The translations under genes and the position numbers were made by a program. Positions 12,815-64,000 of a stretch of DNA of 64,000 bases are shown in pieces. Source of the DNA: a virus; the IMG/VR virus record IMGVR_UViG_3300030380_006811, positions 55,076 through 119,075 of that record. One strand, written 5' to 3'. Each line of letters begins with the position of its first letter. The stretch's first letter is position 1. The notes under the pieces are model-generated. The model did not search any database and was not told where the DNA came from. It was given only the letters and a program-made list of their open reading frames with translations.

Positions 12815-12815
12815 T

Positions 12816-14263: not shown

Positions 14264-14273
14264 TTATAAAGGA

Positions 14274-17366: not shown

Positions 17367-17369
17367 ATT

Positions 17370-17924: not shown

Positions 17925-18715
17925 TATCAGTAATAATACCAACGTATAGAAACCCAGAATATTTAGATATTTGTTTAAAATCAGCTATTCAATATCAAAG
18001 ATATAGTAATGAAATTATTGTAGCAGTAGATGGTTATATAGAAGAGAGTCAGTCTGTATTAGATAAGTATAAAGATAATATCAAAATATTAGATTTAGGT
18101 GAAAATCAAGGAATGCAACAAGCTCTTAATTTAGCTGTGATGAATGCTAGTAATGAAATCATTTTTGTTGTTAATGATGATAATGTATTTTGTGTTGATT
18201 ATGATTTAGCCATTGAGAAAAACATAAAAGAAAAATCAGTACTTACCTTAAATCAAATTGAACCAGAAGGTCCTGGCATTTTTAAATTTCCAGTTAAAGA
18301 TTTTGGACGTACCCCAGAAGCATTTGATTATGATGCGTTTATAGAGTATGAACAATCAATTAGAAAAGATGAGCTAACTATTGATGGTGGTATTTTTCCA
18401 TTTGCTATGTACAAGAAATATTATATGGCTGCTGGTGGATTTGATGTAATGTATAGATCTCCTTTTATTTGTGATTGGGATTTTTTCTTAAAGTTAGATT
18501 TAATGGGTCTTAGTTTTAATAGAACACATGAAGCACACTTATATCATTTTGGGAGCACAGCAACTAAAAATGGTAAAGAAGGAATAAGATTTAAAGAATC
18601 AGAACGACCAGCAGCTGAATTATTTAATTATAAATGGGGTCACCCACCATCATTATTTAAAAATAATTCACATAGTCCAAAAGGAAAAACCATAAAAGGT
18701 ATAAAGTATTGTTAA
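17921..18715 (+). CDS. Glycosyltransferase, GT2 family
   Basis: ISVIIPTY, VAVDG, VNDDN, GGFD, DWDF, YHFGS. Confidence 0.9.
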   Translation: MISVIIPTYRNPEYLDICLKSAIQYQRYSNEIIVAVDGYIEESQSVLDKYKDNIKILDLGENQGMQQALNLAVMNASNEIIFVVNDDNVFCVDYDLAIEKNIKEKSVLTLNQIEPEGPGIFKFPVKDFGRTPEAFDYDAFIEYEQSIRKDELTIDGGIFPFAMYKKYYMAAGGFDVMYRSPFICDWDFFLKLDLMGLSFNRTHEAHLYHFGSTATKNGKEGIRFKESERPAAELFNYKWGHPPSLFKNNSHSPKGKTIKGIKYC

Positions 18716-47419: not shown

Positions 47420-47430
47420 AATTTAAAAAA

Positions 47431-48582
47431 ATGGCAATATATAAAATTTTCCCACTTCAAGATACAACATTATATTCAGGATATCCTGATATGAATACTG
47501 GAATAGATGCTATTTTAGAAATATCTAATTCTTATCCTTCTACTGTAGCTAATCCTATAGTAGCTAGACCTCTAATACAATTTGATCAATCTCAAATTAA
47601 TAATGTTATAGATACTTTAAATACTGGTTCAACTGCTATTTCTGCTAGTTTAAAAGCATTTATAGCAGATGCAAGTGGGGTAGTAATGCAGTCTGAAATT
47701 TATGCATACCCCGTTTCTGGGTCTTGGAATAATGGTAGTGGAGAATTTTTAGATAATCCTCCTACTATTAATGGTTCAAGTTGGGTATTTAGAGCAAATA
47801 GTGGATCAACCCCTTGGCTATTAGATAATTTTACAGAAAATGTAACTGGTTCATATATAGCTGCCTCACCAGGAGGTGGAAATTGGTATACTGCATCTTC
47901 GGATACAAGCTTAAATTTAGAATATTCTCAATCCTTTAATTTAAGAACAGAAAAGGATATAAATATGGATGTAACTGATATTGTAAAAACTTGGTACTCA
48001 AGTTCAAATTCAATAGGTGGTACTTATACTTCTATAGAAAATAATGGGTTTATTTTAAAGTGGGAAGATGAGGTTGAATTTAGTACAAACTTATCAATCC
48101 AACCTAAAATGCAATTCTACTCTATTGATACTAATACTATTTATCCCCCACAATTAGAAATTAAATGGAGGGATTTTGATTATACTTCATCAGGGCTTCA
48201 AATTATTGACACACCAGATTTATATCTTGCTATTGATAATAACCCCGGAGTGTTTTATAGTGAAAGTATTAATCAATTTAGAATAAATTGTAGACCAGAA
48301 TTTCCAGTTAGAAGATTTTTAACATCTTCAGTGTACACTACAAACCATGCCTTACCATCAGAATCGTATTATGCTATAAAAGATTTAGATACAAATGAGT
48401 TTGTTATTGATTTTGATAGTGAATTTACCCAAATTAGTTGTGATACAACTGGAAGTTATTTTACAATTTATATGAATGGTTTGGAACCAGAAAGATATTA
48501 TGAAATATTAGTTCAAACTACTGTAGATGGTAATACTATAGTAAAAGATGATCAATATTATTTTAAAGTTGTTAATGGTTAA
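47431..48582 (+). CDS. Baseplate/tail structural protein
   Basis: DTTLYS...NTGIDAILEI, NNGFILK, FYSIDT; within baseplate operon. Confidence 0.6.
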   Translation: MAIYKIFPLQDTTLYSGYPDMNTGIDAILEISNSYPSTVANPIVARPLIQFDQSQINNVIDTLNTGSTAISASLKAFIADASGVVMQSEIYAYPVSGSWNNGSGEFLDNPPTINGSSWVFRANSGSTPWLLDNFTENVTGSYIAASPGGGNWYTASSDTSLNLEYSQSFNLRTEKDINMDVTDIVKTWYSSSNSIGGTYTSIENNGFILKWEDEVEFSTNLSIQPKMQFYSIDTNTIYPPQLEIKWRDFDYTSSGLQIIDTPDLYLAIDNNPGVFYSESINQFRINCRPEFPVRRFLTSSVYTTNHALPSESYYAIKDLDTNEFVIDFDSEFTQISCDTTGSYFTIYMNGLEPERYYEILVQTTVDGNTIVKDDQYYFKVVNG

Positions 48583-48584
48583 TT

Positions 48585-49052
48585 ATGTCGCAAACAAGAA
48601 ATGTTGATTTACAAAAAGAGACTTTTAATAAAGCTCAATATGAACAAGTAATTGATACCACTTTTTCACAATTAGGGGTACCATCAATTAGTGCAAGTGC
48701 TGAGAATCAAATAAGTATTGAAGAATTCTTTGGATATTACAATGAGCTTTTTTATGATATACCCCCAACTGGTGAATCTAATTCACATGAATTTTTGGTT
48801 AAAAGTAGTGGGGAATATATTAATTTTGATCAAATAGCAGAAGAAATTATAGCATTACAGAACGAAATAACAGGATTAAGAGAAGAATTACTAGCAGAAC
48901 AAATTAAAGTAGTAGAATTAGAATCTGGAATAACATTAGATACAGGGTCATTGAATTTAGGAAACGATACAAGCATTCCTTCTTCGGGTGGAGGAAATGC
49001 AATGATATCCACTTCTAATAGTTCATCTCCTGTATCATCTAATTCCTATTAA
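48585..49052 (+). CDS. Structural-operon hypothetical protein
   Basis: Coiled coil plus Ser-rich tail. Confidence 0.6.
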   Translation: MSQTRNVDLQKETFNKAQYEQVIDTTFSQLGVPSISASAENQISIEEFFGYYNELFYDIPPTGESNSHEFLVKSSGEYINFDQIAEEIIALQNEITGLREELLAEQIKVVELESGITLDTGSLNLGNDTSIPSSGGGNAMISTSNSSSPVSSNSY

Positions 49053-49063
49053 TATAAGCATAA

Positions 49064-52000
49064 ATGGAAGAAAAAATTATAATCCAACCAGTATCTCCAG
49101 ATACTTTTGAATTTCAAGATTACTCTAATAGTGATCAAGATTTGCTGGTTACCAACCAATTAGATACTGTATTCTCGGGATCTACAGATTATATTGAAGC
49201 TTACATCTACGATGCTAATAAAAGTCAAATAACTAGTGCTATTCCCTTTACAAATTATAAAGTTGTAGAAGGAAATGTTGTAATTAGTCCATCAAACGAT
49301 TTAGAAAGATTAGGATTTGATCAGGGAGAATATTTTATCTCTTATGAATTTTACAAACCTAGATTAGGATCTACTTTAAACACTAGATATTATATTAGTG
49401 AAATTAGTTCTGATAGAACAGAAATTAGACTAGATACTACACAAATTGATAATGCTTTAGTAATAAGTTCAAGTTTAGAGTTTATTCAATATAGAGATGA
49501 AGCTAATTATTTTGTAGATTTTTATCTTAATTTTGGTGATAATCAACAAATTATAGCTAATAATCTAGAAATAGATACGACGGATGAAAATAACCCTACA
49601 TTATTAATTAAATTATATGATCCTCTTCCTAGTGAATTTGATCTAAAAGCACAATGTTCTGTAGTTGAAGAAATCTCTACTCCACAATCATATAATGTAG
49701 TTTTTCCACCATTAAATTTTAGTGCAGATGACTTTAATTATATATCAGGTCCAAATTATAATTTATCAGTTACAAATCAATCTGGCACTCCAGGATTAGA
49801 TTATTCCTATAATACTTTATTATCTTCTGATATAACAAGTTCTACAACTCAAATTAAAAGTTTATTAAATAAAAAAGAAATAGAAATTAGTGTTAATTAT
49901 GAAGATTATAATGATTTTATATATTTTTCTTCTGCATTTACTAGACTTCAAAACTTTTATTATAAAGTAGGACTAATTCAATCTGCTAGTGCCCAATTAG
50001 GAACTTTAACATCAGCAACAACTGGTTCAGTAGTTTATAGTGCTAGTCAAGCATCTTTAACAAATATAATTGATACTACTATTGAAAATTTTGATGGATA
50101 TGAATATTTTTTATATTTTAATAGTGGTTCAGATCAATCATACCCTAAATCAAATACTGAACCTCCATTTATTTTATATCCAACAGGAAGTACAGAAGTC
50201 TTAAATTGGCTAGGATCTACTGTTATTGGTAATGCATATTATGGTGGTCAGGCTCTATCAGCTTCTAACTATGATGAAAATAACCAAAATTCTTTATATT
50301 ATGCTATCCCCGAATATTTGAGAAGTGACCCTCAAAATGTTAAATATGAATTATTTGTTGATATGGTGGGCCAACATTATGATAATGTATGGCTTTATAC
50401 TAAAAATATTACAACTAGATTTGACGCGGATAATCGTTTAGATTATGGTATAGCAAAGGATATGGTCGCAGATGCTATTAGAGATTTTGGTGTAAAATTA
50501 TATTCTAATAACTTTAATACAGATGACTTATATACATCCTTTTTAGGATTAACACCATCAGGTAGTTCTTTCCCATTCCCAAATATGACAGGATCTATTG
50601 GTGGAGTAGTTAATACACCTTCCGGGTTTGAGTATGTAGATTCAACAATATCAGCTTCAAATGATATAATCCCATTGGATGATGTAAATAAACGTTTATA
50701 TAAACGAATTTACCATAATATACCATATTTACTTAAAACTAAAGGTACAATAGCTGGTCTAAGGGCATTAATAACATCATATGGTATCCCTGATACTATT
50801 TTAAGAATAAATGAATTTGGAGGTAAAGATAGAAATAACTCTCAAGATTGGGATTTAAAGCAGGATTTTTATAATTTAGGCTTAAACACAACTAGTTCAG
50901 GATTTACATCTTCTTTCTCTCTTAATACAGATTGGGGAGCTAATGAAAATTCACCCTCAAGCATTCAATTTAGATTTAAAACAAATGGTATCCCCTCATC
51001 ATCTAATACTCCAACAACCCAATCCATTTTTGAATCTAATTTAAATGTTGGAAGTGGTGGTCCATTAAGTAGAATTGCAATGGGACTTGATTATGACGAA
51101 TCATTGTTAACTACAGGTACATATTCGGGATCAGTTGAAAGTAAATTTAAAGAATACGGTACTTTAAAATTTTGGCCTAACATAAATACAAACCCTGAAA
51201 ATTCGGCATCATTATATCTTCCATTTTGGGATGGTAATTGGTGGTCAGTTCAGGTAGATAGAGATATTAATGTAGGAAATGATGGTGGTTTTACTTTAAG
51301 AGCTGCTAATAATATTGGAGAAAACTTAGGTTTTACTGGTAGTGATACTATTGAAGGTAACGTTACATTATGGGAAAATTCTACTGAAATATATTGGTTA
51401 CCTCAAAATTTCTCTACATTTGCAGGAATTAATTATTTTGCCCTATCTGGTTCATTACAAGAAGTAAGATATTATACAGATGTAATAAGTGAAAGTGTAT
51501 TTTATGATTACACAATGAACCCTTATTCATTTGAGGGTAATCAAATTAATAGTGCACCCGACCAATTAGCATTTAGGCTTTCTTTAGGAAGCTTATTAAA
51601 CACAGGATCTTTTAATAATTCAATTCATCCTAAAGTAACAGGTTCTTTTATAACAACCTCATCATTTAGTACCAATAGTTCTGCATCTTTTAATGCAACA
51701 CCAACATGGTTAAACAATACAGAAGATATATACTCAGACCAAACCCCATCTGGGATAAGGAATAGAGTAACAGATAAAATTCAAATAGAAAATTTAATAC
51801 TCCCAGAAGGAGATACCTTATCTGGATTTAGATCTATACAACAAACTTCTTATGTAAGTGAAAGCTTTACTCCTGATGTTAATTATTTAGAAGTAGCATA
51901 TTCACCTCAAAATCAAATTAATGATGATATTATAGGACAATTAGGATATTTTAATATTGGAGATTATATTGGGGATCCAAGACTTATATCATCATCGGAT

Positions 52001-55000
52001 AAAAGTTACCCTGATTTAGATTTATTAAGAGATGCTTATTTTGAAAAGTATATAACTAATTATGATGTAACTGATTTTATTAGATTAATTAAATTCTTTG
52101 ATAATTCATTATTTAAAATGATAGAAGATTTTACTCCAGCAAGAACTAGTTTATCATCTGGGGTAGTTATTAAACAACATTTATTAGAAAGAAACAGACA
52201 AAGACCAGCTCAGGTTACTTCTTCTTTAGAACAATATTCTGGATCAGTTAGTAATTTACCAAAAGATTATTCAACTGGTTCTAGTGATTTCCCACAGTAT
52301 GATTTTAGTGGTTCATCAATTTATGTTTTTAAAGCCGGCACTGGTGGATCGTTTGAACCATTTAATGGGTTACAAACATACCCCTCTGGTACTTTAGGTG
52401 ATGGTCCTGATAATAGATATTTTTTAACACAAAGTTGGAGTGAATCTATTTCAACATTTGATGGTATAGCACCCTTACCAAGGGTTGACCAAAGAGAATT
52501 TTACAATGGAGAATTTAGTGGATCAAATATACCAGTAGAACTTGAGGATATATGCAGCGCTTATTTCAAAGTAGGGAATACAGTATACACTTATGTTCCT
52601 GTTTTTTGGAGTGCAGATGGTAATAATAATACTCAAACAATAACGGAGCAAGCTTTCTTAGATCCAACAAATCAACCCCCAGCTAAATATGCTTGGTTTT
52701 GGAATGATGGTTCTAATGTATTATATATTAAAATGTCCCTCGAAAGTTATAATGGGGTCATAATATCCAGTTTTATACAAACTGTAGAGTGGATTATATT
52801 TGCATTTACAAATCCTATAGATGCTAATGGTGCTATTTTACAAGGAACCCAAACTTATTATTTAGAAGATGTAGCCCTTCAACCTGAAACTGCAGCATCA
52901 AACCCAGAAAGCGTTGGGTCTGCCTTATGTTACACAATACCAGGTGAATCTTCAACAGCAGTAAGTTCAGCTGATGCTTCTTTTTATGATTTTAACTTCT
53001 CAGCAAGTGGGGATTATCAATGGCATGCAACACAAGATACATCTGCAGATCCAAATCCTGTATTAGACACAGGTATATCAGCATCAGTACCACAAGGTTA
53101 TTTTCCATTAACATCTACTTATCCTACTGAGTCCTTCTTTAGTGGGTGGGCCTCATCTAATTTTTATACTAATGGTACTTATAATGCCTTTAGTGGGATA
53201 TTAAGTGATCCATTAAATAATTTTAACACTGGATCTCACGAAGTAGATAATACAGATACTACATTGGTATCAGGAATTGACCCTCAAAGTAACCATCCAT
53301 GGTTTATGAATGCATCTCCAGAGGGAGAAAACCAAAGTTGGATAAAAATACCATCAGAATCATTTTTAGATTATGCAAATATACCAGATTCATCAGTAGG
53401 TCCTGTTGCTACAAATAATTATTTTAATATAGCATGGACAAGTGCAAGTTCAGTAGAACCACAAGCGGTTCAAGGAGTTAATTACTATTATAATGCCAGT
53501 AATAATGCTATCTATATGTCTGGTTCAGAATTTCAAAATGAATTAAAATTTCTAAACCCTTTATATTCTAGTAGTTTAGTACATAAAATTAGTGGAACTG
53601 ATCAACTTGGAACATCTGGAACATCTTATACTCCCCCAGGACAAAGTAACTTATCTATTCCAATAGACCCATCAAGAGGTCAAGAATTATGGGTTTATAG
53701 AGGTGAATCAAGTGCTAATGTTGCAGATTCAAACACTTATAGATATAATAGATATATTCATAGACCTTTTAAAATATACTACTTAACAGAAACAGGATCG
53801 GGTATACCAGGAATACCCTACAATTTATATGATCCAATGACATATGAAGGGATAGATAGTTCAACAGCAGGTTTACAATCAATTGATGCAGTTGTCCCTC
53901 CTTATTATGATAACCAAAATGTTTCCTTTGCCACAATGTTAGGAACACAAGGTGACATATCATTTAATGCTCCAACTTACGCACGACCCTTAAATGATAC
54001 CGCAACATTACCTTCACTAGGAGCAGTTTCTGGTAGTTTTGAAATATTTAATGAAGCTAGACAAGTTAGACCTTTTATATTTACTACATATAGAAATAAC
54101 CCATCAACATCAGGTCCTAATCCAGCAAGAGGTAGTGGCTCATTTGTAGCAATTTCCCAATCAGATGGTACTCCATTCGCTTTATTAAGAATGTACCAAA
54201 ACCAAACTCCAAACTTACCATCAGCTACAACAACACCATTTCTTGTAACATGTAATAATACTCAAGGAGCTCCTTTTTGTGCTGTCATTTATTATGGTTT
54301 GAATGATGAGGTAACCACACAATTATTAAATGCTGGGCAAAGTGCAGTTATTTGTGGAGATAGTTCTAGAACTTCTAATTCAAATAGTCCAAATTATGTT
54401 CTTACACCCTCTAGTATTGGAACCATAGCAGTATCAACAAATTTAAATGGCAACGCAGACCCATGTATAAACTTAGACCCAAGTGGAGGTGGAGGTATAG
54501 GTGGGAATCAAAATAGTTCAGTTGGGAAAAATCAAATTCCTTATTTTTATACCTTTAATGCATCAGGTCCTAGTGTTGGAAATCAAGCACTTCAAGAATA
54601 TCAAATACCATATGGAGAATTTTTTAATGGAGAAAATACATCTTCACTTAGTTTAACAACAGGAACACAACCTGGGGGCGGGGATGATGATACAGAAATA
54701 GTATTCCCAGAAGGAGGTTATATCTTTACAATGAGTGCCTTTGATGATACAACTTTTACAAATGGTAGAACTGAATTTGGGTTATGGACTACTTATGGTG
54801 ATTATGTTAGATATGATTTTGATAACCAAGCAGGATCAAATGCCAACCCAGTTACAATAGATTATATAGATAATCAGTATCAAAATACTTCTGTTGATGT
54901 TTATAATGTTGCACTTGAAGAATTTGATAAATCCTCAAATGTTGGAAGTGCTAATAATTCTAACACAGGTACGGGTAATACTGATTCTATATCCTATCCA

Positions 55001-58000: not shown

Positions 58001-58315
58001 TCTGAGAAAACCAGTACTGGAGGAGGTAGTGGAACTGCTTTAGAATATACTACATCATCAATAACTTTTGAAACAGTTGCATCCTATGTGAAAGTTGATT
58101 TTCCAGAACAATCATTTAGACCAATAGATAATTTTGTTATTCGCAGATATTTGCAAGATGCTGGTGGAATGATTGTAGATCAAAGTTTTCCATATTCATC
58201 AAACCCAGAAAAAATTACATCAGCTGGATTTCTAAAACCTCCATTTACAACCCCAGATTTAGAAACATCACCAGATGTTATATTACAAGACTTAATTGAT
58301 AAAAAACTTATTTAA
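49064..58315 (+). CDS. Giant (3083 aa) baseplate/tail protein, gp7-like core
   Basis: YLLKTKGT..GLRALI..YG (tail protein I/gp7-like motif); S/T/G/N-rich variable C-terminal region. Confidence 0.65.
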   Translation: MEEKIIIQPVSPDTFEFQDYSNSDQDLLVTNQLDTVFSGSTDYIEAYIYDANKSQITSAIPFTNYKVVEGNVVISPSNDLERLGFDQGEYFISYEFYKPRLGSTLNTRYYISEISSDRTEIRLDTTQIDNALVISSSLEFIQYRDEANYFVDFYLNFGDNQQIIANNLEIDTTDENNPTLLIKLYDPLPSEFDLKAQCSVVEEISTPQSYNVVFPPLNFSADDFNYISGPNYNLSVTNQSGTPGLDYSYNTLLSSDITSSTTQIKSLLNKKEIEISVNYEDYNDFIYFSSAFTRLQNFYYKVGLIQSASAQLGTLTSATTGSVVYSASQASLTNIIDTTIENFDGYEYFLYFNSGSDQSYPKSNTEPPFILYPTGSTEVLNWLGSTVIGNAYYGGQALSASNYDENNQNSLYYAIPEYLRSDPQNVKYELFVDMVGQHYDNVWLYTKNITTRFDADNRLDYGIAKDMVADAIRDFGVKLYSNNFNTDDLYTSFLGLTPSGSSFPFPNMTGSIGGVVNTPSGFEYVDSTISASNDIIPLDDVNKRLYKRIYHNIPYLLKTKGTIAGLRALITSYGIPDTILRINEFGGKDRNNSQDWDLKQDFYNLGLNTTSSGFTSSFSLNTDWGANENSPSSIQFRFKTNGIPSSSNTPTTQSIFESNLNVGSGGPLSRIAMGLDYDESLLTTGTYSGSVESKFKEYGTLKFWPNINTNPENSASLYLPFWDGNWWSVQVDRDINVGNDGGFTLRAANNIGENLGFTGSDTIEGNVTLWENSTEIYWLPQNFSTFAGINYFALSGSLQEVRYYTDVISESVFYDYTMNPYSFEGNQINSAPDQLAFRLSLGSLLNTGSFNNSIHPKVTGSFITTSSFSTNSSASFNATPTWLNNTEDIYSDQTPSGIRNRVTDKIQIENLILPEGDTLSGFRSIQQTSYVSESFTPDVNYLEVAYSPQNQINDDIIGQLGYFNIGDYIGDPRLISSSDKSYPDLDLLRDAYFEKYITNYDVTDFIRLIKFFDNSLFKMIEDFTPARTSLSSGVVIKQHLLERNRQRPAQVTSSLEQYSGSVSNLPKDYSTGSSDFPQYDFSGSSIYVFKAGTGGSFEPFNGLQTYPSGTLGDGPDNRYFLTQSWSESISTFDGIAPLPRVDQREFYNGEFSGSNIPVELEDICSAYFKVGNTVYTYVPVFWSADGNNNTQTITEQAFLDPTNQPPAKYAWFWNDGSNVLYIKMSLESYNGVIISSFIQTVEWIIFAFTNPIDANGAILQGTQTYYLEDVALQPETAASNPESVGSALCYTIPGESSTAVSSADASFYDFNFSASGDYQWHATQDTSADPNPVLDTGISASVPQGYFPLTSTYPTESFFSGWASSNFYTNGTYNAFSGILSDPLNNFNTGSHEVDNTDTTLVSGIDPQSNHPWFMNASPEGENQSWIKIPSESFLDYANIPDSSVGPVATNNYFNIAWTSASSVEPQAVQGVNYYYNASNNAIYMSGSEFQNELKFLNPLYSSSLVHKISGTDQLGTSGTSYTPPGQSNLSIPIDPSRGQELWVYRGESSANVADSNTYRYNRYIHRPFKIYYLTETGSGIPGIPYNLYDPMTYEGIDSSTAGLQSIDAVVPPYYDNQNVSFATMLGTQGDISFNAPTYARPLNDTATLPSLGAVSGSFEIFNEARQVRPFIFTTYRNNPSTSGPNPARGSGSFVAISQSDGTPFALLRMYQNQTPNLPSATTTPFLVTCNNTQGAPFCAVIYYGLNDEVTTQLLNAGQSAVICGDSSRTSNSNSPNYVLTPSSIGTIAVSTNLNGNADPCINLDPSGGGGIGGNQNSSVGKNQIPYFYTFNASGPSVGNQALQEYQIPYGEFFNGENTSSLSLTTGTQPGGGDDDTEIVFPEGGYIFTMSAFDDTTFTNGRTEFGLWTTYGDYVRYDFDNQAGSNANPVTIDYIDNQYQNTSVDVYNVALEEFDKSSNVGSANNSNTGTGNTDSISYPKIFVNEEGGSASSGLGYIRFNVVAGGELNINVSKNKNAFVTVKIFVGDDQTATGSTPSGMTQIAELPSSFTVSTTGPTNFTSTVTNTQQVMVLVSTNQDVDNWGQINALFINLPSPSVIANMGSPEAQPSFTDPFVITGSISEKYANGVEVPGSFATKVTEAYILYTSSLSSSLAGAYVFDVTPTFGILHVTASVVVSSFTDTQAALYGNAIYGSSEYGGGNSGGGTTWTTASLILYTGSANNFPNEMPQIGGDIFAITSSHSTTHNTGERITLMTTISPGELAYNDVIKMALRVGSGSDASSVVQNSLIVTEYSMSFSSSIDASVDPSIPTIFSDDQNFNYAYDCQPLLNNYSAARINNRLQNVDYTTGLVIPTNWQQVIDFSASRASVPESNYSKTNIINGRYDGSNITSQKYNIWTPGDAGGFGKLPSIDVNKTHLAYFNTVYDGYPLLNNKTLYNVQYLIDQEGQATQPKLSDITFFDVQGTFEPLPEWNGDEFEYVNNAIISLAGDAKEQLFPLQGEFPFYKTQARPEPVLYSQKSGIFPVNKNATEPQGIELVGNQPIDANIVPNFNNYTFEAFGETEIFTSTRNINSTTQILESKTPVQDGDGLPVGGQNNITASAANTGTSLPIYQNDKNVDEAGFTTIPILDGGSGFAVDNTQGLGNNTSQAYDLDFEFFVDSDPTDTRLRTRDHEGGWKGHSPIDSPLIGEFELRFQRRNFNASTDAEVGWGSQAIKGVKVEIIEYFSSTNAAGTNFLVIDYNSVGASYISTQQSNGLVQVNFHTDTIRDAYQNAGYASPIKQRLKISGKHSTTSTGFGGGNRPIRQGDQFRVRYNGNIITNTSGNGPVFFPQGIQSFTGGRILMQGQNSNPVTAATASFWDFSGSGTSQAGNVLHCVSPQLNKAYARDFVQKDLIYTASFNKDFPGGREPFYTTMPPVTLPWELQINDEIRFDNNEDNAYKIINIIPPSENNDPNLTSSDNLTPSLVIELDGSVPINFGSEKTSTGGGSGTALEYTTSSITFETVASYVKVDFPEQSFRPIDNFVIRRYLQDAGGMIVDQSFPYSSNPEKITSAGFLKPPFTTPDLETSPDVILQDLIDKKLI

Positions 58316-58332
58316 TAAAATAATAATTTAAT

Positions 58333-58360
58333 ATATTTATAACATATAACAATATTTATA
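58333..58360 (+). promoter_or_regulatory. Tandem putative late promoters
   Basis: ATATTTATAA at 58333 and ATATTTATA at 58352. Confidence 0.7.
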
Positions 58361-58373
58361 TAAAAATAAAACA

Positions 58374-59039
58374 ATGGGATACTTAAATAACGCAGTAATT
58401 ACAGTTGATGCAATTTTAACTACTAAAGGTAGAGAAGCATTAGCTGCTAATGATGGTTCATTTCAAATTACCCAATTTGCATTAGCTGATGATGAAATAG
58501 ATTATACATTATATAATCCATCCCACCCATCTGGTTCTGCATATTATGGTGAAGCAATTGTAAATCAACCATTACTAGAGGCTTTTCCTTTAGAAAGCCA
58601 AATAATGAAATATAAGTTAACTACTCTACCTAGAGGTACAGCTAAAATGCCAGTATTAAATCTTGGATATGCTGCAATTACACTTCAACAAGGAGCACAG
58701 TTAGCAATCACACCACAAACCTTAAATTACTTAGGTAATGACCAAACATTTGAAACTAGTGGTTATACTGCTACAATTGCTGATGTAAGAACACTATCTA
58801 GCTTTGAAGGAATTGGTATTCAAAGTACAGCTACAACAACAGCTAATGCAACTGCAACCCAAACAATTGGAACTAATGTATCTTCAACAGTAACAGGAAC
58901 TCAAATAAACTTAAGAGCAACTACAGTTAATACTTTATTTGGAAGTAATTCAACTTTAGTAACAACTTTAACTGTAACGGGATTAGATAGTGGAGCTAGA
59001 TTAACAGTTCCTGTAACCATAACAAAAACTGCTATATAA
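58374..59039 (+). CDS. Baseplate/tail-fibre attachment protein
   Basis: AILTTKGREALA...ITQFALAD; double late-type motif upstream. Confidence 0.6.
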   Translation: MGYLNNAVITVDAILTTKGREALAANDGSFQITQFALADDEIDYTLYNPSHPSGSAYYGEAIVNQPLLEAFPLESQIMKYKLTTLPRGTAKMPVLNLGYAAITLQQGAQLAITPQTLNYLGNDQTFETSGYTATIADVRTLSSFEGIGIQSTATTTANATATQTIGTNVSSTVTGTQINLRATTVNTLFGSNSTLVTTLTVTGLDSGARLTVPVTITKTAI

Positions 59040-59050
59040 AAAAATAAAAA

Positions 59051-60121
59051 ATGAGCTTTAAAAGATTAGACCCAGAAGATTTTGTAGTAAGTGCTGATGC
59101 TGTTTCATCCACAGTTTGGACAGGAAATGAACCTATTTTAACAACATTCTTTACTTCTTCTGCCCAAGAAAATGGAGCATCGGGAAAATTTTATCTTGAT
59201 GTATATAACACAGAATCAAATTTGGCAAATAACCAAATACAATTTGCTATTGCGTATGCAGATGAAACAGGAGGTGGAGCAATCGCATACAATTCAGCAG
59301 TAAATAATTATTCTCCTTCAACTACAATGTATGGTTCTTATAGAACATTAGTATTAGAAGATGAAAATTCAAGTTTTACATTTGGAGATGTTACAAGTAG
59401 TTATTTTTATGCTATAAGTGTAGAAAGAGCTAGATATAAAGAAACTTTATTTCCTGGTTCTTTAAACTTAAAATTATCAAGTAGCTCACCAGGTGCTACG
59501 GGTCCAATAGAATTAACAGATAATTCTCAAGATGTTACAATTCCTCAGTATTTTGGTACAATGAGGGCTTACCAAATAATTAGTGGTTCAAATGGTACAG
59601 CTTATAATAAACTTACAGGAGAAAATGGTAATAATACAGGATTTACTACAAATAGTGGTTCTTATGGGTTATTCTTACCAGATATTTCAACTATATTACT
59701 AAATGGTCTTGCTTTAGATTTAGATAATGCTGAAGGAATTAACTTAGACCCAGCAGGTACTAATAGAACAATTAATTCAGATCAAAATAATCCACAAAAA
59801 TTATATGAACACATGTCAGCAAGTGTTGGAGTTGGGGCAGCAGCTAATTTTGAATTAGGATGTCAAGAAACAATAACATCAGATTATGTATTTGTAAGAG
59901 CAAGAAGCTCTGAATTTAATTATTCTGAAAATCCATCATTTATATCGGGTTCAACAGGTGAAGTAATTTATTCTTATTTTATTAATAACCCTAATGTATT
60001 CCCAACAACAGTTGGATTATATAATGATAGTAATGATTTACTTGCAGTAGCAAAATTATCAAAACCAATTTTAAAAGATTTTACAAAAGAAGCTCTAATA
60101 CGAGTAAAACTAGATTTCTAA
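59051..60121 (+). CDS. Baseplate/tail structural protein (paralog 1)
   Basis: EFNYSENPS...TTVGLYND...LLAVAKLSKP. Confidence 0.6.
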   Translation: MSFKRLDPEDFVVSADAVSSTVWTGNEPILTTFFTSSAQENGASGKFYLDVYNTESNLANNQIQFAIAYADETGGGAIAYNSAVNNYSPSTTMYGSYRTLVLEDENSSFTFGDVTSSYFYAISVERARYKETLFPGSLNLKLSSSSPGATGPIELTDNSQDVTIPQYFGTMRAYQIISGSNGTAYNKLTGENGNNTGFTTNSGSYGLFLPDISTILLNGLALDLDNAEGINLDPAGTNRTINSDQNNPQKLYEHMSASVGVGAAANFELGCQETITSDYVFVRARSSEFNYSENPSFISGSTGEVIYSYFINNPNVFPTTVGLYNDSNDLLAVAKLSKPILKDFTKEALIRVKLDF

Positions 60122-60126
60122 AATGA

Positions 60127-61098
60127 ATGGCGGCTTTCAAACAATTCAATTCTCAAGATATAATTGTATCGCCGTTAGAAGTAAATAAATCGTTTACTTT
60201 TAAAGGCGACGGCGAGCTCTCTGCTTCCAATGCTGATGTTAATAGATTTTTAGGAAAAAATGTAAATTTTACTTCTTCTACAAATTATCAAACTGGTTTT
60301 AACTCAGGTAGTTTAATTTTATCTCAATCCTCAATATATGATTCAGTAAAAGAATTATATTATTCTAATTTTTTAACTTCAAGTTTTGGCGATGATGCAA
60401 TAACTGCTAGTGTAGTTCTTGGGTCTGACCCATCTGGGGATGTATTAATAGGTCCACCTGGATCTAACGGAAGATACGTAAATTATTTACAATCTTCATT
60501 AACCCAATCACGTAATTTCCCTACAGATGAAGATGATTATATTTTGGTATTTTCAATACCTTCTAAATTATTTGGTGATTATATTCAACCTGAATCATTT
60601 GTATTAAATTTAAATAATGATAGTTCTTCATGGCTTATATCAGCAGAAATCACAGACGATGGAGAAGGTAATTTACTATCTGGAAGTGTTAATGTTGGAC
60701 AAATATTTTACCCTCATGGTATTGCAGTTTTAACACAACAAGATTGGGGATCGTTAGGATCATCTAAATTACCAAGTGCGTATTCAGGTTCACAAATATC
60801 TTGTTCATTTTCAAGTTCATATACAATTTATGAAACACAATATAAATGTACAATAAATGAAAGTGAATTTAATTTTTCACAAAACCCAAGTATAATATCT
60901 GGAAGTATAACGGATAACATAACTACTTCTAGTGGAATTGTTTATGATTTTGCAACAAGTTCTTATTTTAGTCCCTATGTAACAACTGTTGGTATGTATA
61001 ATAACGATCATGAATTATTAGCTGTAGGTAAATTAGCTCAACCCTTACCTACTTCACAAACCACTGATACAACAATTTTAGTAAATATAGATAGATAA
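60127..61098 (+). CDS. Baseplate/tail structural protein (paralog 2)
   Basis: EFNFSQNPS...TTVGMYNN...LLAVGKLAQP. Confidence 0.6.
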   Translation: MAAFKQFNSQDIIVSPLEVNKSFTFKGDGELSASNADVNRFLGKNVNFTSSTNYQTGFNSGSLILSQSSIYDSVKELYYSNFLTSSFGDDAITASVVLGSDPSGDVLIGPPGSNGRYVNYLQSSLTQSRNFPTDEDDYILVFSIPSKLFGDYIQPESFVLNLNNDSSSWLISAEITDDGEGNLLSGSVNVGQIFYPHGIAVLTQQDWGSLGSSKLPSAYSGSQISCSFSSSYTIYETQYKCTINESEFNFSQNPSIISGSITDNITTSSGIVYDFATSSYFSPYVTTVGMYNNDHELLAVGKLAQPLPTSQTTDTTILVNIDR

Positions 61099-62252
61099 TG
61101 GCATGTACACTTTCAAATTTAGGAATACAAACGGGATGTGTAATACAGGCATCTCAAGTATCTCAATCTATTGATGCTTTTACCAAAGCTGAAGAGTATG
61201 ATGTTTCATTATCTGGTTCATTAACTATTACAGGTAGTTTATTATTTTCAGGATCAGAAGCATCGTCAGTACAATTCCAACAACTTCCAAATTTAACCCA
61301 AAACCATCTACTAAATTATAATTGTAACACAGGAGGAGTTGGGTTTGTTTGTGTAGATAGTTTTGTAGTAACTCCATCAGAAGGACCATATTTTACAAGT
61401 AGTAATTCTGGTTATGCTTTTGAAATTCAACCCCATGATACTCTTAATAAGGCTACTGGTTCTTATTCTGTAATTTCAGGAGGTAATAAAAATGAAATTT
61501 CTAATCAATCTTGCACATCAATTGTAGGGGGATTTTGTAATACTATAACATCTTCTAGGAGTTCAGCTAATAATTTTATAGGTGGAGGTAGCCATAATAA
61601 TATGAATAATACATATTTATGTCGCAATTCAATACTTGGGGGATGTTTAAATGAAATATGTGGACCTGTAGATGCACCTAGTACTATTGGAGCTAATACA
61701 AGCCAAAATGTTATAGGAGGGGGTTGTAAAAATATTATATCCGGTTCATCTGTAAATTCAATAATAGGGTCTGGTACTAATAATTTAATATGTGGGTGTA
61801 TTAATTCTCCTGGTTTAGCTTTTATAGGAGGTGGTAATTGTAACGTAATACAAGGTTGCGCACATTATGGTAATTCAATTGTAGGTGGGTGTAAAAATAC
61901 TATTGATCCGAGTTTTAACATTTCACCTTCATGTCAAACTGATGTTAGACACTCAGCAATTTTAGGTGGTATAAATAATACAGCTTCTGCTTGTGAATCC
62001 TATATTATAGGAGGATGTGAAAATTTTGCTAAACATGAATGTTCTTTTATTGTTGGTTCAAATATTACGAGTTCTGCTGTTTGTACTACCTACGTAAATA
62101 ATTTAAATGTAGGATGTACAGTGCACATGCTATTAAGAAAAACTATTGGTACGGGTCAAGCAGGGATGTTAGTAGCTTGTGAAACACCTGGTGGGTTAGC
62201 AGAGTTATATTTTCATGATGGGAATGGATATAAAAAAGTTTGTTTAATATAA
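61098..62252 (+). CDS. Cys-rich tail fibre/adhesin with GGxxN beta-roll repeats
   Basis: SGGNKN, VGGFCN, LGGCLN, GGGCKN, GGGNCN, VGGCKN, LGGINN, IGGCEN. Confidence 0.7.
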   Translation: MACTLSNLGIQTGCVIQASQVSQSIDAFTKAEEYDVSLSGSLTITGSLLFSGSEASSVQFQQLPNLTQNHLLNYNCNTGGVGFVCVDSFVVTPSEGPYFTSSNSGYAFEIQPHDTLNKATGSYSVISGGNKNEISNQSCTSIVGGFCNTITSSRSSANNFIGGGSHNNMNNTYLCRNSILGGCLNEICGPVDAPSTIGANTSQNVIGGGCKNIISGSSVNSIIGSGTNNLICGCINSPGLAFIGGGNCNVIQGCAHYGNSIVGGCKNTIDPSFNISPSCQTDVRHSAILGGINNTASACESYIIGGCENFAKHECSFIVGSNITSSAVCTTYVNNLNVGCTVHMLLRKTIGTGQAGMLVACETPGGLAELYFHDGNGYKKVCLI

Positions 62253-62269
62253 TAATTGTTTTTAATTTA

Positions 62270-62279
62270 ATATTTATAA
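62270..62279 (+). promoter_or_regulatory. Putative late promoter
   Basis: ATATTTATAA. Confidence 0.7.
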
Positions 62280-62288
62280 TAAAACCTG

Positions 62289-64000
62289 ATGGCTAAACAG
62301 TTAGAAAATATTTTTAATCCAAATGTTGATGAAATATCACAAGGGTTTACAATTAATTCTTGGCATGTTTCTCAATCAGTAGATGCATTTACAGCTCAGG
62401 ATGCTTATGATATTTCAATATCAGGTTCTCTTAATAATACAGGTTCAGCAAGTTTTTCAGGTAGTGTATTTACCCCAGATTTAACTGATACATCAGCCGA
62501 TTTTGAAGTAGTTGTTGTTGATAATACTACAAAAGAATTAAAAAAAACAACATCATTAGCAGCAGGTTCTTCTGGTTCATCAGGTTCATCTGGTACAAGT
62601 GGCACAAGTGGCACTTCGGGTACAAGTGGTTCTTCAGGAACAAGTGGAACCTCAGGTTCATCAGGTAATAGTGGATCATCTGGTTCATCAGGTGCAGACG
62701 GAGATAGATATGCTACAACTTCAGGTACATCAGAAACACTAGGGGATGGAAATAAATGTATAAATATTGAATTAGGTTTAGCTTATACTGCAGGTCAAGA
62801 AATGATAATGGCTAACAGTGATACTGCTTTTCAAACAGCTTTAGTTGTTAGTTATAACCCTGTAACTGGAATTTTATGTTATGGCGATATTATAACTCAG
62901 GAAGGAACTGGAACCTATAGTAGTTGGCAAGTTAACCTTTCAGGAAATGTAGCAGGATCTTCAGGTACTTCTGGAACTTCGGGTACTAGTGGTACCTCAG
63001 GAACTTCTGGTGGTATAGGAGAAGCTGGTTCATCAGGTTCATCGGGTTCATCTGGTACAAGTGGTACTTCGGGTTCAAGTGGGACAAGTGGTTCATCAGG
63101 TACTTCAGATAAGTACGCAACAACTTCAGGCACCACTTATCAATTAGGAGCTTCAACTCCTTGTCTTACAGTTGAAACCGGATTAGCGTATACAACTGCT
63201 CAATCCATAATTATAGTACATGATATTGATAATTTCCAAGAATGTGAAGTTAGCTCTTATAATTCAGCAACTGGTGAATTATGTTTTACAAATATAACAA
63301 GACAAGTAGGATCAGGAACTTATTCAACTTGGACAGTCAATCTAGACGGTGCTTCGGGGGGAGATGGATCTTCGGGTTCTAGTGGTACATCAGGAACAAG
63401 CGGTTCTTCAGGTACATCGGGTACAAGCGGTTCTTCGGGAACAAGTGGAACTAGTGGATCTTCAGGAGCTAGTGGTTCTTCTGGTTCATCTGGTACAAGC
63501 GGAACTTCGGGTACAAGTGGTACTTCTGGTTCAAGTGGTGAAGATGGATCATCTGGTTCTTCAGGCACAAGCGGAACTTCAGGAACAAGTGGAACCTCAG
63601 GTTCTTCAGGTACATCTGGCACATCAGGTTCTTCAGGTACATCAGGTTCTTCAGGCACATCTGGTACTAGTGGTACTTCTGGTTCAAGTGGAACATCAGG
63701 AACTTCAGGAACAAGTGGTTCTTCAGGTACATCTGGTACATCAGGATCATCTGGTACTAGTGGTACAAGTGGATCATCTGGAACAAGCGGAACTTCAGGT
63801 TCAAGCGGAACTTCTGGTACATCGGGTACATCAGGTACATCAGGTTCAAGTGGTGAAGATGGATCATCGGGTTCAAGTGGTACTTCAGGCACAAGTGGTT
63901 CAAGTGGTACTTCAGGTTCAAGTGGTACTAGTGGCTCATCAGGTACAAGCGGAACTTCTGGTTCATCAGGTACTAGTGGTACAAGTGGAACTTCAGGAAC
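62289..64000 (+). CDS. Collagen-like Gly-(Ser/Thr)-Ser repeat fibre protein, 3'-truncated (absent from ORF track)
   Basis: ATG at 62289 (MAKQLENIFNPN...), open to window end; ATATTTATAA at 62270. Confidence 0.85.
   Translation, partial: MAKQLENIFNPNVDEISQGFTINSWHVSQSVDAFTAQDAYDISISGSLNNTGSASFSGSVFTPDLTDTSADFEVVVVDNTTKELKKTTSLAAGSSGSSGSSGTSGTSGTSGTSGSSGTSGTSGSSGNSGSSGSSGADGDRYATTSGTSETLGDGNKCINIELGLAYTAGQEMIMANSDTAFQTALVVSYNPVTGILCYGDIITQEGTGTYSSWQVNLSGNVAGSSGTSGTSGTSGTSGTSGGIGEAGSSGSSGSSGTSGTSGSSGTSGSSGTSDKYATTSGTTYQLGASTPCLTVETGLAYTTAQSIIIVHDIDNFQECEVSSYNSATGELCFTNITRQVGSGTYSTWTVNLDGASGGDGSSGSSGTSGTSGSSGTSGTSGSSGTSGTSGSSGASGSSGSSGTSGTSGTSGTSGSSGEDGSSGSSGTSGTSGTSGTSGSSGTSGTSGSSGTSGSSGTSGTSGTSGSSGTSGTSGTSGSSGTSGTSGSSGTSGTSGSSGTSGTSGSSGTSGTSGTSGTSGSSGEDGSSGSSGTSGTSGSSGTSGSSGTSGSSGTSGTSGSSGTSGTSGTSG
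63366..64000 (+). repeat. 9-bp period coding repeat, (GSS/GTS)n
   Basis: GGN-(TCN/ACN)-(TCN/AGY) units with synonymous variation; shorter tracts at ~62565-62700 and ~62955-63108. Confidence 0.95.

What the first reader, a model, noticed from the sequence alone, without database searches (positions are those of the whole stretch)
47431..64000. [S/T]-[G/A/S]-S motif saturates the virion proteins: candidate sequon for a phage-encoded O-glycosylation system
Seen: unrelated baseplate and tail proteins are peppered with the same tripeptide, usually after a hydrophobic residue. 47431 gene: ISASL, VSGSW, NSGST, VTGSY, YTASS, TTGSY. 3083-aa gene: FSGST, QSASA, YSASQ, LSASN, MTGSI, ISASN, YSGSV twice, LSGSL, VTGSF, FSGSN, FSASG, ISASV, MSGSE, VSGSF, ITGSI, VTASV, TTASL, ITASA, ATASF, YTASF. 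59051/60127 genes: ISGSN, NSGSY, MSASV, ISGST, LSASN, ITASV, LSGSV, YSGSQ, ISGSI. The fibres share LSGSL/ISGSL. By eye it is rare in GroEL, the ligase and the GTs. Known: some phages and giant viruses glycosylate their virions; the Bacteroidota host sequon D-(S/T)-(A/I/L/V/M/T) is different. Inference: this is a recognition motif for the phage's own glycosyltransferases (9652-18715), producing a glycan-coated tail.
Basis: partly seen in the sequence, partly recalled or inferred. Interest (0 to 1): 0.85.

Follow-up and report, generated by a model that had tools for sequence, protein, structure and literature searches.

The report
Serine motif marking phage tail proteins
A short serine-containing motif really is written several times too often into the outward-facing tail proteins of a whole family of aquatic phages that also carry their own sugar-transfer enzymes, so a sugar-coated tail is a reasonable and easily tested idea, but nothing here proves that sugars are attached.

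Summary
Observation confirmed. [ST][GAS]S occurs 96 times against about 30 expected in five tail ORFs (47431, 49064, 59051, 60127, 61098). In a blind scan of all tripeptides, SGS, TGS, SAS and TSS rank first to fourth.

The motif reads one way only. [ST]GS is 5.3x enriched and [ST]GT 0.7-0.9x. It is flanked by hydrophobic residues, and its codons are mixed.

T4, SPO1 and phiKZ show no enrichment. All 80 fetched relatives show it, starting sharply at the 47431 homologue. The enriched proteins are mutually unrelated, and motif positions turn over among homologues.

Interpretation partly supported.
- The GT4-GT4-GT2 core (9652-13439) is present in all five enriched, fully or largely sequenced family members. 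The one distant relative with homologous baseplate genes lacks most of the core and shows little enrichment. All five are one family, so descent confounds this.
- The genome also encodes, outside the window, an Aah/TibC-type protein O-glycosyltransferase beside the sheath gene. This scan had noted it before (e1-6145314). That enzyme does not track the motif.

A purely structural idiom remains a strong rival. No sugar has been shown.

The parts
47431..48582 (+). 383-aa distal baseplate protein directly after the Baseplate_J gene. It has two beta-sandwich domains, one like a carbohydrate-binding module (CBM). 10 motifs.
   Evidence: 10 vs 2.1 expected. AlphaFold pLDDT 83, pTM 0.81. Best fold matches are CBM-like domains and the Epf adhesin domain. 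Homologues: 725 vs 165 motifs over 79 relatives.
48585..49052 (+). 155-aa ORF with 3 motifs; not enriched once local composition is kept.
   Evidence: 3 vs 2.5-2.9 with 20- and 40-residue blocks.
49064..58315 (+). 3083-aa giant baseplate or fibre protein with 57 dispersed motifs.
   Evidence: 57 vs 18.8, z 9.7. No internal repeats by self-BLAST. The N-terminal ~1100 aa are homologous in immuto, Mel-JY01 and LR756508.
58374..59039 (+). 221-aa conserved tail protein; not enriched.
   Evidence: 1 vs 1.0. 72% identical in immuto.
59051..60121 (+). 356-aa tail protein with 8 motifs.
   Evidence: 8 vs 2.2.
60127..61098 (+). 323-aa tail protein with 12 motifs.
   Evidence: 12 vs 3.6. Its family of 22 sequences has 7.8 motifs per sequence spread over 46 alignment columns, of which only 4 are occupied in at least half the sequences. 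The AlphaFold model is poor, pLDDT 65.
61098..62252 (+). 384-aa fibre. The N-terminus carries the motif in a six-residue rhythm (LSGSLT ITGSLL FSGSEA).
   Evidence: 9 vs 3.3. Its N-terminus is shared with 62289.
62289..63998 (+). Collagen-like Gly-(Ser/Thr)-Ser fibre that runs off the contig end. The N-terminus has the same six-residue motif array. The repeats follow a different grammar (SGT is as common as SGS).
   Evidence: Translation. Pfam Collagen E 3.6e-44. 36 vs 61.5 in shuffles.
9652..13439 (+). Family-wide core of the glycosyltransferase cluster: GT4 (483 aa), GT4 (423 aa), a 147-aa ORF and GT2 (214 aa). A PD-(D/E)XK nuclease gene at 8447-9415 precedes it.
   Evidence: Pfam. Homologues lie contiguous in immuto, G042, G045 and Mel-JY01; the 147-aa ORF was not found in Mel-JY01. 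Both GT4 proteins fall in virus-only Atlas clusters.
13436..18715 (+). Lineage-specific part of the cluster: a short UDP-sugar dehydrogenase-like ORF, an SDR epimerase/dehydratase, an unknown ORF, two methyltransferases and a second GT2.
   Evidence: Pfam and NCBIfam. Mostly no homologues in immuto, G042 or G045.

Best explanation
The signal is a direction-specific motif: hydrophobic residue, Ser or Thr, a small residue (Gly more than Ala more than Ser), Ser, then often another hydrophobic residue. It is written 3 to 5 times more often than local composition predicts into the outward-facing virion proteins. These are the distal baseplate, the giant baseplate/fibre protein, the fibres, the neck fibres and, more weakly, the sheath. 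This holds across a whole family of aquatic myoviruses; cultured members are Flavobacterium phage immuto and Microcystis phage Mel-JY01. The rest of their genomes does not show it.

I read it as an acceptor signature for O-glycosylation of tail proteins in the host cytoplasm by phage enzymes. The hydrophobic residue ends a beta-strand, and the hydroxyl residues sit where the loop starts.

Candidate enzymes:
1. The virus-specific GT4-GT4-GT2 core at window 9652-13439. In this phage it is extended by sugar-nucleotide and methyl-transfer genes up to 18715.
2. A 1244-aa protein outside the window (genome 8552-12286). It joins a GT4 domain, an Aah/TibC-type protein O-glycosyltransferase domain and a PIG-L deacetylase domain, and lies in the structural operon near the sheath gene.

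Shown: the enrichment, its sequence rules, its restriction to external virion proteins, its spread through the family, the family membership of the Aah/TibC domain, and the co-occurrence with the GT core.

Inferred: that any sugar is attached, which enzyme does it, and which hydroxyl is used.
For: 1. Enrichment survives global and local shuffles and tops a blind tripeptide scan.

2. The rules are sharp (19 relatives pooled).
- [ST]GS is 5.3x enriched, [ST]AS 2.4-2.9x and [ST]SS 1.6-2.0x.
- [ST]GT is 0.7-0.9x, and [ST]G followed by N, D, G or A is 0.6-1.1x.
- NGS is 0.9x, GGS 0.8x and AGS 0.8x.
- So the last place takes Ser, not Thr, Asn or Asp. By my recollection a plain Gly-based turn usually accepts those residues; no call tested this.

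3. Codons are mixed, so selection acts on the protein.

4. The five enriched proteins are unrelated to each other apart from short termini. The giant protein has no internal repeats, and only 13% of motif spacings are 8 residues or fewer. One of the proteins is a beta-sandwich, not a fibre.

5. The number of motifs is kept while positions move.
- 47431 family: 9.2 per sequence over 39 alignment columns, 5 of them occupied in at least 77% of sequences.
- 60127 family: 7.8 per sequence over 46 columns, 4 of them occupied in at least half.

6. It is not a general property of myovirus tails.
- T4: 27 vs 30.7 in 15 structural proteins.
- Over the stretches scanned: T4 76 vs 75, SPO1 66 vs 63, phiKZ 109 vs 107.

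7. It is family-wide: 725 vs 165 in the 47431 homologues, 2946 vs 962 in downstream ORFs and 304 vs 362 in upstream ORFs.

8. The LR756508 homologue has little enrichment (1 vs 0.5; giant protein 6 vs about 3). Where the family has the motif, it carries charged or polar residues (alignment). So the fold does not require the motif.

9. The GT core is present in 5 of 5 enriched genomes that hold the region. It was not found in T4 (70-169 kb), SPO1, phiKZ (20-280 kb), S-PM2 or HTVC008M.

10. Immuto DNA shows dA, dC, dT and formyl-preQ1 only, with no glycosylated nucleoside reported (bioRxiv 10.1101/2023.04.13.536721, section 17 read). DNA is therefore an unlikely target of the conserved GTs.

11. 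The Aah/TibC domain.
- TIGR04414: E 9.4e-60, 202.5 bits against a cut-off of 200.
- TibC structure 4RAP: E 1.6e-35, with Asp110, Lys230 and the four iron-binding Cys aligned to identical residues.

12. [quoted passage not shown] The mapped TibA sites are Ser in N-S-G-G and T-S-A-A (PMC4358343, passages read).

13. In the 47431 model, 4 of 10 motifs begin exactly where a strand ends.
Against: - No result shows a glycan.
- The co-occurrence with the GT core is fully confounded by common descent: all five positive genomes belong to one family.
- The Aah/TibC enzyme does not explain the motif.
  - Immuto and the complete contig G042 lack it and are equally enriched.
  - G046 has it and shows 149 vs 149 with no enriched ORF in the 190 kb held, which includes its sheath and Baseplate_J genes.
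  - No enrichment was seen within 20 kb of it in LR756501 or LR756504.
- In fibre N-termini and neck fibres the motif recurs every six residues, which looks like a structural repeat.
- Two marine T4-like phages without the GT core show a mild version: HTVC008M 160 vs 115, S-PM2 219 vs 174.
- The GT core lies next to a nuclease and a DUF1599 'nucleotide modification associated' gene, among replication genes. In RM378 it lies beside a polymerase-like gene and ribonucleotide reductase.
- Alignment of loops is unreliable, so the turnover of positions may be overstated.
- Surface exposure was judged from secondary structure only.
Confidence: 0.4

Rival explanations
1. Structural idiom without any modification. 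In this family the sequence strand-[ST]-G-S-strand is simply the preferred way to end a beta-strand and turn, or to pack small residues in trimeric fibres. It is inherited and re-invented because it folds well.
For: - Six-residue arrays of the motif occur in fibre N-termini and neck fibres, in this phage, G003, immuto and Mel-JY01.
- Hydrophobic residues lie on both sides.
- Some positions are nearly fixed: 0.95-0.98 at two columns of the 47431 family.
- Enrichment does not depend on the one enzyme known to modify proteins.
- Marine T4-like phages without the GT core show a mild version.
Against: - The motif crosses unrelated folds and proteins.
- Thr, Asn and Asp are excluded from the last place, and Asn, Gly and Ala from the first.
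- Most positions are not conserved although the number is kept.
- The LR756508 homologues presumably share the folds but lack the motif.
- T4, SPO1 and phiKZ tails lack it.
Confidence: 0.35
2. The motif is the acceptor for the Aah/TibC-type enzyme alone. The GT cluster in the window does something else.
For: - The domain is a member of the family with its catalytic and iron-binding residues intact.
- It is widespread in viral contigs: at least 532 loci.
- A sheath gene lies downstream on the same strand in 76 of 87 fetched loci, and within 600 nt in 46 of 87. All 7 sheath-sized ORFs scanned are sheath proteins; 3 further ORFs scanned in the same call were not.
- Sheaths next to it carry SGS at 5.8x and TGS at 3.4x.
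- In Mel-JY01 two motif-rich ORFs (12 vs 2.8 and 24 vs 7.0) lie directly before it.
Against: - Immuto and G042 lack the enzyme and keep the enrichment.
- G046 has the enzyme and shows no enrichment.
- The sheath ratio is 2.34 with the enzyme (79 related sequences) and 1.66 without it (6 sequences), a small and non-independent difference.
- No GmhA-type heptose gene was found in the 119 kb held.
Confidence: 0.1
3. The motif serves another trans-acting partner or another modification. Examples are a fibre-assembly chaperone, phosphorylation or acylation of Ser, or direct binding of host polysaccharide by Ser/Thr ladders on the tail surface.
For: - The motif is restricted to external proteins and has sharp sequence rules.
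- The 47431 protein resembles carbohydrate-binding modules.
Against: No candidate kinase, acyltransferase or chaperone was linked to the motif in any call. The idea rests on exclusion only.
Confidence: 0.1

Closest known systems
Autotransporter heptosyltransferases Aah/TibC (BAHT family) acting on AIDA-I and TibA of E. coli
   Same: [quoted passage not shown] The mapped sites are N-S-G-G and T-S-A-A.
- The phage domain passes the family model and keeps the catalytic and iron-binding residues.
- In bacteria the gene sits beside its substrate gene (PMC4358343). Here it sits beside the sheath gene.
   Different: - Here the domain is fused to a GT4 domain and a PIG-L domain.
- The neighbours are virion proteins, not autotransporters.
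- The sugar donor is unknown.
- The presence of the enzyme does not track the motif.
Virion glycosylation in mycobacteriophages by phage-encoded glycosyltransferases (Freeman et al. 2023). I saw it only as cited in PMC12619734 (passage read); the paper itself is not held.
   Same: Phage-encoded glycosyltransferases decorate virion proteins.
   Different: - There the glycans are reported at the C-termini of the capsid and tail tube subunits.
- Here the candidate sites are dispersed through baseplate, fibre and sheath proteins and follow a defined tripeptide.
Serine-rich repeat adhesins glycosylated by the GtfA/GtfB pair of Gram-positive bacteria (recalled, not read here)
   Same: Two adjacent GT4-fold proteins, and Ser-x-Ser type acceptor sequences such as SAS.
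   Different: - Neither phage GT4 matched any GtfA or GtfB model at E up to 0.001.
- The substrates here are folded beta proteins with dispersed sites, not long repeat tracts.
Chlorovirus PBCV-1 glycosyltransferases
   Same: The best solved relative of the first GT4 is PBCV-1 B736L (3OY2, E 6.3e-07). It is a virus-encoded GT-B enzyme of a virus that glycosylates its own capsid with its own enzymes (the capsid glycosylation is recalled, not read here).
   Different: The similarity is weak. The acceptor of B736L is, to my recollection, not established. The PBCV-1 glycans are N-linked (recalled).
General O-glycosylation of Bacteroidota at D-(S/T)-(A/I/L/V/M/T)
   Same: Ser/Thr acceptor next to a hydrophobic residue, in the likely host phylum of some family members.
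   Different: - The residue before the hydroxyl is hydrophobic here (66%), and Asp is not among the eight commonest residues at that place.
- The host system works in the periplasm (recalled), whereas phage tails assemble in the cytoplasm.

Membership tests
Aah/TibC autotransporter O-heptosyltransferases (BAHT), for the domain at genome 8552-12286, outside the window | Sequence match to the curated family model above its cut-off | tested here: met
   TIGR04414: E 9.4e-60, 202.5 bits against a cut-off of 200, model positions 10-371 of 374. In the close relative G003 the score is 191.4 bits, just under the cut-off. In Mel-JY01 it is 320.6 bits.
Aah/TibC autotransporter O-heptosyltransferases (BAHT) | Catalytic Asp110 and Lys230 and the four iron-binding cysteines of TibC | tested here: met
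   In the alignment to 4RAP (E 1.6e-35) all six positions pair with identical residues; I counted the positions from the printed alignment. Residue roles are taken from PMC4358343.
Aah/TibC autotransporter O-heptosyltransferases (BAHT) | Transfers heptose from ADP-heptose to Ser of a beta-helical passenger domain; forms a dodecameric ring | not testable with these tools
   No GmhA-type (SIS_2) gene in the 119 kb held, which is about 73% of a genome. The neighbours are PseB-like and RmlD-like enzymes, so the donor may differ.
Aah/TibC autotransporter O-heptosyltransferases (BAHT) | Gene lies next to the gene of its substrate | tested here: inconclusive
   A sheath gene lies downstream in 76 of 87 viral loci, and within 600 nt in 46. 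Whether the sheath is a substrate is unknown.
O-glycosylation sequon (as a class) | More frequent in target proteins than composition predicts, and absent from non-targets | tested here: met
O-glycosylation sequon (as a class) | Co-occurs with the transferase across genomes | tested here: inconclusive
   - GT4-GT4-GT2 core: 5 of 5 enriched genomes have it, and the non-enriched LR756508 lacks most of it. All positives are one family.
- Aah/TibC domain: does not co-vary with the motif.
O-glycosylation sequon (as a class) | Acceptor hydroxyls are solvent-exposed | tested here: inconclusive
   In the 47431 model, 4 of 10 motifs start at a strand end, 3 lie in loops, 2 in strands and 1 at a helix end. 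No coordinates were available for accessible area. The second model is poor.
O-glycosylation sequon (as a class) | A glycan mass is found on the site | not testable with these tools
   Needs virions and mass spectrometry.
GtfA/GtfB system of serine-rich repeat adhesins | The two GT4-fold proteins match the GtfA and GtfB family models | tested here: not met
   No such family appears among the NCBIfam matches of 9652-11103 or 11103-12374 at E up to 0.001.
Bacteroidota general O-glycosylation sequon D-(S/T)-(A/I/L/V/M/T) | Asp directly before the hydroxyl residue | tested here: not met
   The eight commonest residues at that place are F, I, Y, L, N, V, T and G; 66% are hydrophobic.

The most novel reading that the evidence does not exclude
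A widespread family of marine and freshwater myoviruses coats its baseplate, fibres, neck fibres and sheath with O-glycans at a defined sequon (hydrophobic)-[S/T]-G-S-(hydrophobic). Virus-specific GT4/GT2 enzymes install them in the host cytoplasm. In many members an Aah/TibC-type protein glycosyltransferase, encoded just before the sheath gene, adds to this. That would be the first sequence-defined O-glycosylation code for phage virions. It could be tested at once in two cultured phages, one with the second enzyme (Mel-JY01) and one without (immuto).
Probability: 0.3. Interest if true: 0.85.

Novelty: new variant of a known kind. Interest (0 to 1): 0.62.

Why it matters
Glycosylated phage virions are known from very few systems, and I know of no sequence rule for where the sugars go.

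Here a sharp, one-directional motif marks exactly the proteins that face the outside world. It does so in a phage family with hundreds of environmental relatives: at least 544 loci encode the 47431 homologue.

The same phages carry virus-only glycosyltransferases. Many also carry an enzyme family so far described, in the papers I could search, only for bacterial adhesins. A full-text search for phage, heptosyltransferase, TibC and tail found 2 papers, neither about phage enzymes by title.

If sugars are attached, this would give:
- a predictive code for glycan shields on phage tails;
- a bearing on host recognition, protease and grazing resistance, and immune recognition;
- new protein-glycosylating enzymes for engineering.

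If no sugars are attached, the motif is still an unexplained and strongly selected structural signature.

Tried and rejected
- DNA-level cause. Rejected: all Ser, Thr, Gly and Ala codons are used in the motif in about their overall proportions.
- Local S/G/T-rich composition. Rejected by shuffles within 20, 40 and 80 residues and by the one-way rule (TGS 5.3x, SGT 0.7x).
- Copies of a duplicated domain. Rejected: no self-hits in the 3083-aa protein, and only short shared termini between 59051/60127 and 61098/62289.
- A general property of myovirus tails. Rejected with T4, SPO1 and phiKZ. Two marine T4-like phages show a mild effect.
- DNA glycosylation as the job of the conserved GT core. Made unlikely by the nucleoside analysis of immuto. 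A paper on glycosylated 5-hydroxycytosine does not mention these phages.
- GtfA/GtfB-like pair. No family match.
- The Aah/TibC enzyme as the cause of the enrichment. Rejected as sole cause.
- Enrichment near the same enzyme in huge phages LR756501 and LR756504. None within 20 kb.
- RM378. It has a distant GT4 homologue and four enriched ORFs, but all are annotated hypothetical, so nothing could be concluded.
- The middle part of the 1244-aa protein (about residues 757-1056). No solved relative, so I do not call it a GT-A domain.
- PHROGs and Pfam gave nothing for most tail ORFs.
- The second AlphaFold model (60127) was too poor to use.
- No paper on Mel-JY01 was found.
- Supplementary files of papers were not opened. 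Those of the 7-deazaguanine preprint and of the TibC paper (its figure supplement on heptosylation motifs) may bear on two claims.

Full report
WHAT THE WINDOW IS. The window is the last 64 kb of a single 119,075-bp viral contig, estimated about 73% complete. G+C content is about 30%. Its nearest cultured relatives are Flavobacterium phage vB_FspM_immuto (160 kb) and Microcystis phage Mel-JY01 (190 kb). An uncultured 484-kb phage, LR756508, is a distant relative. Region 45524-64000 is the distal tail module. A Baseplate_J protein (45524-47419) is followed by the genes in question.

Against shuffles of the whole protein, [ST][GAS]S has these z scores:
- 6.3 in the 47431 protein
- 10.2 in the 3083-aa protein
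- 4.0 in 59051
- 4.5 in 60127
- 3.6 in 61098

Shuffles that keep composition inside blocks of 20, 40 or 80 residues give the same result. With 40-residue blocks the counts are 10 vs 2.1, 57 vs 18.8, 8 vs 2.2, 12 vs 3.6 and 9 vs 3.3. Between 0 and 2 of 500 shuffles reach the observed value.

Three ORFs in the region are not enriched: 48585, 58374 and the collagen-like 62289. In 62289, Gly-(Ser/Thr)-Ser repeats follow another grammar.

A scan of all tripeptides over seven structural ORFs ranks SGS, TGS, SAS and TSS first to fourth.

The 112 ORFs before 47431 on the contig give 63 vs 51.0. Once capsid, sheath and two neck-region ORFs are set aside, this becomes 38 vs 39.8 (my arithmetic).

THE RULES OF THE MOTIF.
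- The residue before the motif is hydrophobic in 66% of 107 sites and the residue after it in 50%. The background is 33%.
- Codons are mixed, so the constraint is on the protein.
- Pooled over 19 diverse relatives (144 ORFs, 68,468 residues), [ST]GS is 5.3x enriched, [ST]AS 2.4-2.9x and [ST]SS 1.6-2.0x.
- [ST]GT is 0.7-0.9x. [ST]G followed by N, D, G or A is 0.6-1.1x. NGS, GGS and AGS are 0.8-0.9x.

So the motif reads in one direction. It takes Ser or Thr first, a small residue second and only Ser third.

IT IS NOT INHERITED FROM ONE REPEATED DOMAIN. The giant protein has no internal repeats by self-BLAST. The five enriched proteins share only short termini, and only 13% of successive motifs lie within 8 residues of each other. 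The 47431 protein is predicted with good confidence (pLDDT 83, pTM 0.81) as two beta-sandwich domains. Its best fold matches are carbohydrate-binding modules and an adhesin domain. In that model 4 of 10 motifs begin exactly where a strand ends, 3 lie in loops, 2 lie inside strands and 1 lies at the end of a helix. The model of the 60127 protein is too poor to use (pLDDT 65).

In fibre N-termini and in neck fibres, however, the motif recurs every six residues. That looks like a structural repeat.

HOW FAR IT REACHES. At least 544 viral contigs encode a relative of the 47431 protein, and 80 were fetched. Over these, the homologues carry 725 motifs against 165 expected. The ORFs downstream carry 2946 against 962. 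The ORFs upstream carry 304 against 362. The enrichment starts sharply at this gene throughout the family.

Whole-genome scans of immuto, Mel-JY01, G042 (complete), G003 and G045 (complete) find enriched ORFs almost only in the tail, fibre and neck-fibre regions, with the sheath mildly so. One enriched G042 ORF (52505-53869) lies elsewhere and has unknown function. The rest of each genome is at expectation: 124 vs 106, 86 vs 90 and 67 vs 61 in the first three.

Controls:
- T4 baseplate and fibre proteins: 27 vs 30.7.
- T4 stretch scanned: 76 vs 75; SPO1: 66 vs 63; phiKZ: 109 vs 107.
- S-PM2: 219 vs 174; HTVC008M: 160 vs 115. This is a mild effect, about twofold in three large ORFs of HTVC008M.

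Within the 47431 family (60 sequences) there are 9.2 motifs per sequence (range 4 to 13). They are spread over 39 alignment columns, only 5 of which are occupied in at least 77% of sequences. The third-place Ser is kept in 61% of sequences, against 39% for other serines. The 60127 family (22 sequences) has 7.8 motifs per sequence over 46 columns, only 4 of which are occupied in at least half. The number is thus kept while positions move, with the caveat that loops align poorly.

The LR756508 homologues show little enrichment: 1 vs 0.5 for the 47431 homologue and 6 vs about 3 for the giant protein. Where the family has the motif, they carry charged or polar residues.

THE ENZYMES. The cluster at 9652-18715 encodes two GT4 proteins, two GT2 proteins, a short UDP-sugar dehydrogenase-like protein, an SDR epimerase/dehydratase and two methyltransferases.

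Only the first part is conserved. A nuclease (8447-9415), GT4, GT4, a 147-aa ORF and GT2 lie contiguous in immuto, G042, G045 and, without the 147-aa ORF, Mel-JY01. G003 does not hold that part of the genome. LR756508 has only the first GT4: no GT2 family match in its 484 kb, and no homologue of the second GT4 or the GT2. The control phages have none of these genes. Both GT4 proteins fall into virus-only clusters. The best solved relative of the first is PBCV-1 B736L.

Immuto DNA was analysed by others and contains dA, dC, dT and formyl-preQ1, with no glycosylated nucleoside reported (section 17 read). DNA is therefore an unlikely target, although the core sits next to a nuclease and a DUF1599 gene.

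I confirmed the following:
- It holds a GT4 domain, a PIG-L domain and, in between, an Aah/TibC-type domain above the curated cut-off.
- The catalytic Asp and Lys and the four iron-binding Cys of TibC are conserved.
- PseB-like and RmlD-like genes follow it.

[quoted passage not shown] The mapped sites in TibA are N-S-G-G and T-S-A-A. That fits the shape of the phage motif.

The domain is rare among deposited phage genomes (4 of 50,697 records) but common in viral contigs (at least 532 loci). A sheath gene lies downstream on the same strand in 76 of 87 fetched loci, and within 600 nt in 46. All 7 sheath-sized ORFs scanned are sheath proteins; the other 3 ORFs in that scan were a YadA-head-repeat protein and two without a family.

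DOES THE MOTIF FOLLOW THE ENZYMES? It does not follow the Aah/TibC domain.
- Immuto and G042 lack it and are as enriched as the others.
- G046, a jumbo phage that has it, shows 149 vs 149 and no enriched ORF in the 190 kb held.
- Sheaths next to the enzyme have a ratio of 2.34 (79 related sequences), against 1.66 for 6 sheaths without it.

The motif does follow the GT4-GT4-GT2 core: 5 of 5 enriched genomes that hold the region have it, and the outgroup LR756508 lacks most of it. All five belong to one family, however, so this is a single evolutionary event and not five independent ones.

VERDICT.

I favour an acceptor signature for O-glycosylation (0.40). The reasons are that the motif crosses unrelated folds, excludes Thr, Asn and Asp from its last place, keeps its number while its positions move, is missing from outgroup homologues, and marks only external proteins in phages that carry virus-specific transferases.

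A structural idiom without modification is nearly as likely (0.35). The reasons are the six-residue arrays in the fibres, the mild version in other marine phages, and the complete confounding of the comparative evidence by descent.

Cultured phages exist with and without the second enzyme, so a mass-spectrometry experiment would settle the matter.

Noticed in passing
outside the window: genome 8552-12286 (locus L008), about 46.5 kb before the window start: A 1244-aa protein joins a GT4 domain, an Aah/TibC-type protein O-glycosyltransferase domain and a PIG-L deacetylase domain. PseB-like and RmlD-like genes follow it, and it lies between the neck genes and the tail sheath gene. Relatives of the middle domain occur in at least 532 viral contigs, usually directly before the sheath gene.
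   Followed up: yes
window 62289-63998: Proline-free collagen-like fibre (Pfam Collagen E 3.6e-44). It has Gly-(Ser/Thr)-Ser triplets and a duplicated globular domain of about 100 aa, and it runs off the contig end.
   Followed up: partly
window 7973-9415: A DUF1599 'nucleotide modification associated' protein and a PD-(D/E)XK nuclease lie directly before the GT cluster. The nuclease is conserved with the two GT4 genes in immuto, G042, G045, Mel-JY01 and LR756508.
   Followed up: partly
window 13436-14263: The UDP-sugar dehydrogenase-like ORF has only 275 aa. It matches model positions 68-298 of 413, so it lacks the start of the NAD-binding domain and the whole C-terminal domain. It has no homologue in the relatives compared.
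   Followed up: no
loci L014-L093, ORFs downstream of the 47431 homologue: The tripeptides HAE, SHA, YSH and AEG are 8 to 29 times enriched in relatives' fibres. One fibre next to an Aah/TibC gene matches the YadA head repeat. This points to adhesin-like beta-roll repeats in the fibres.
   Followed up: no
Mel-JY01 record 2234-4591 (locus L102): Two fibre-like ORFs with 12 vs 2.8 and 24 vs 7.0 motifs lie directly before the Aah/TibC fusion gene of this cyanophage.
   Followed up: partly
genome 4026-4346 (locus L008): A 106-aa fibre-like protein between the capsid and neck genes carries 6 motifs in a six-residue rhythm. Its homologue in G003 has 18 motifs in 192 aa.
   Followed up: partly
RM378 record 64825-67547 and 25085-25387: This thermophilic, distantly related phage has a GT4 homologue (27% identity) and four motif-enriched ORFs of unknown function.
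   Followed up: partly
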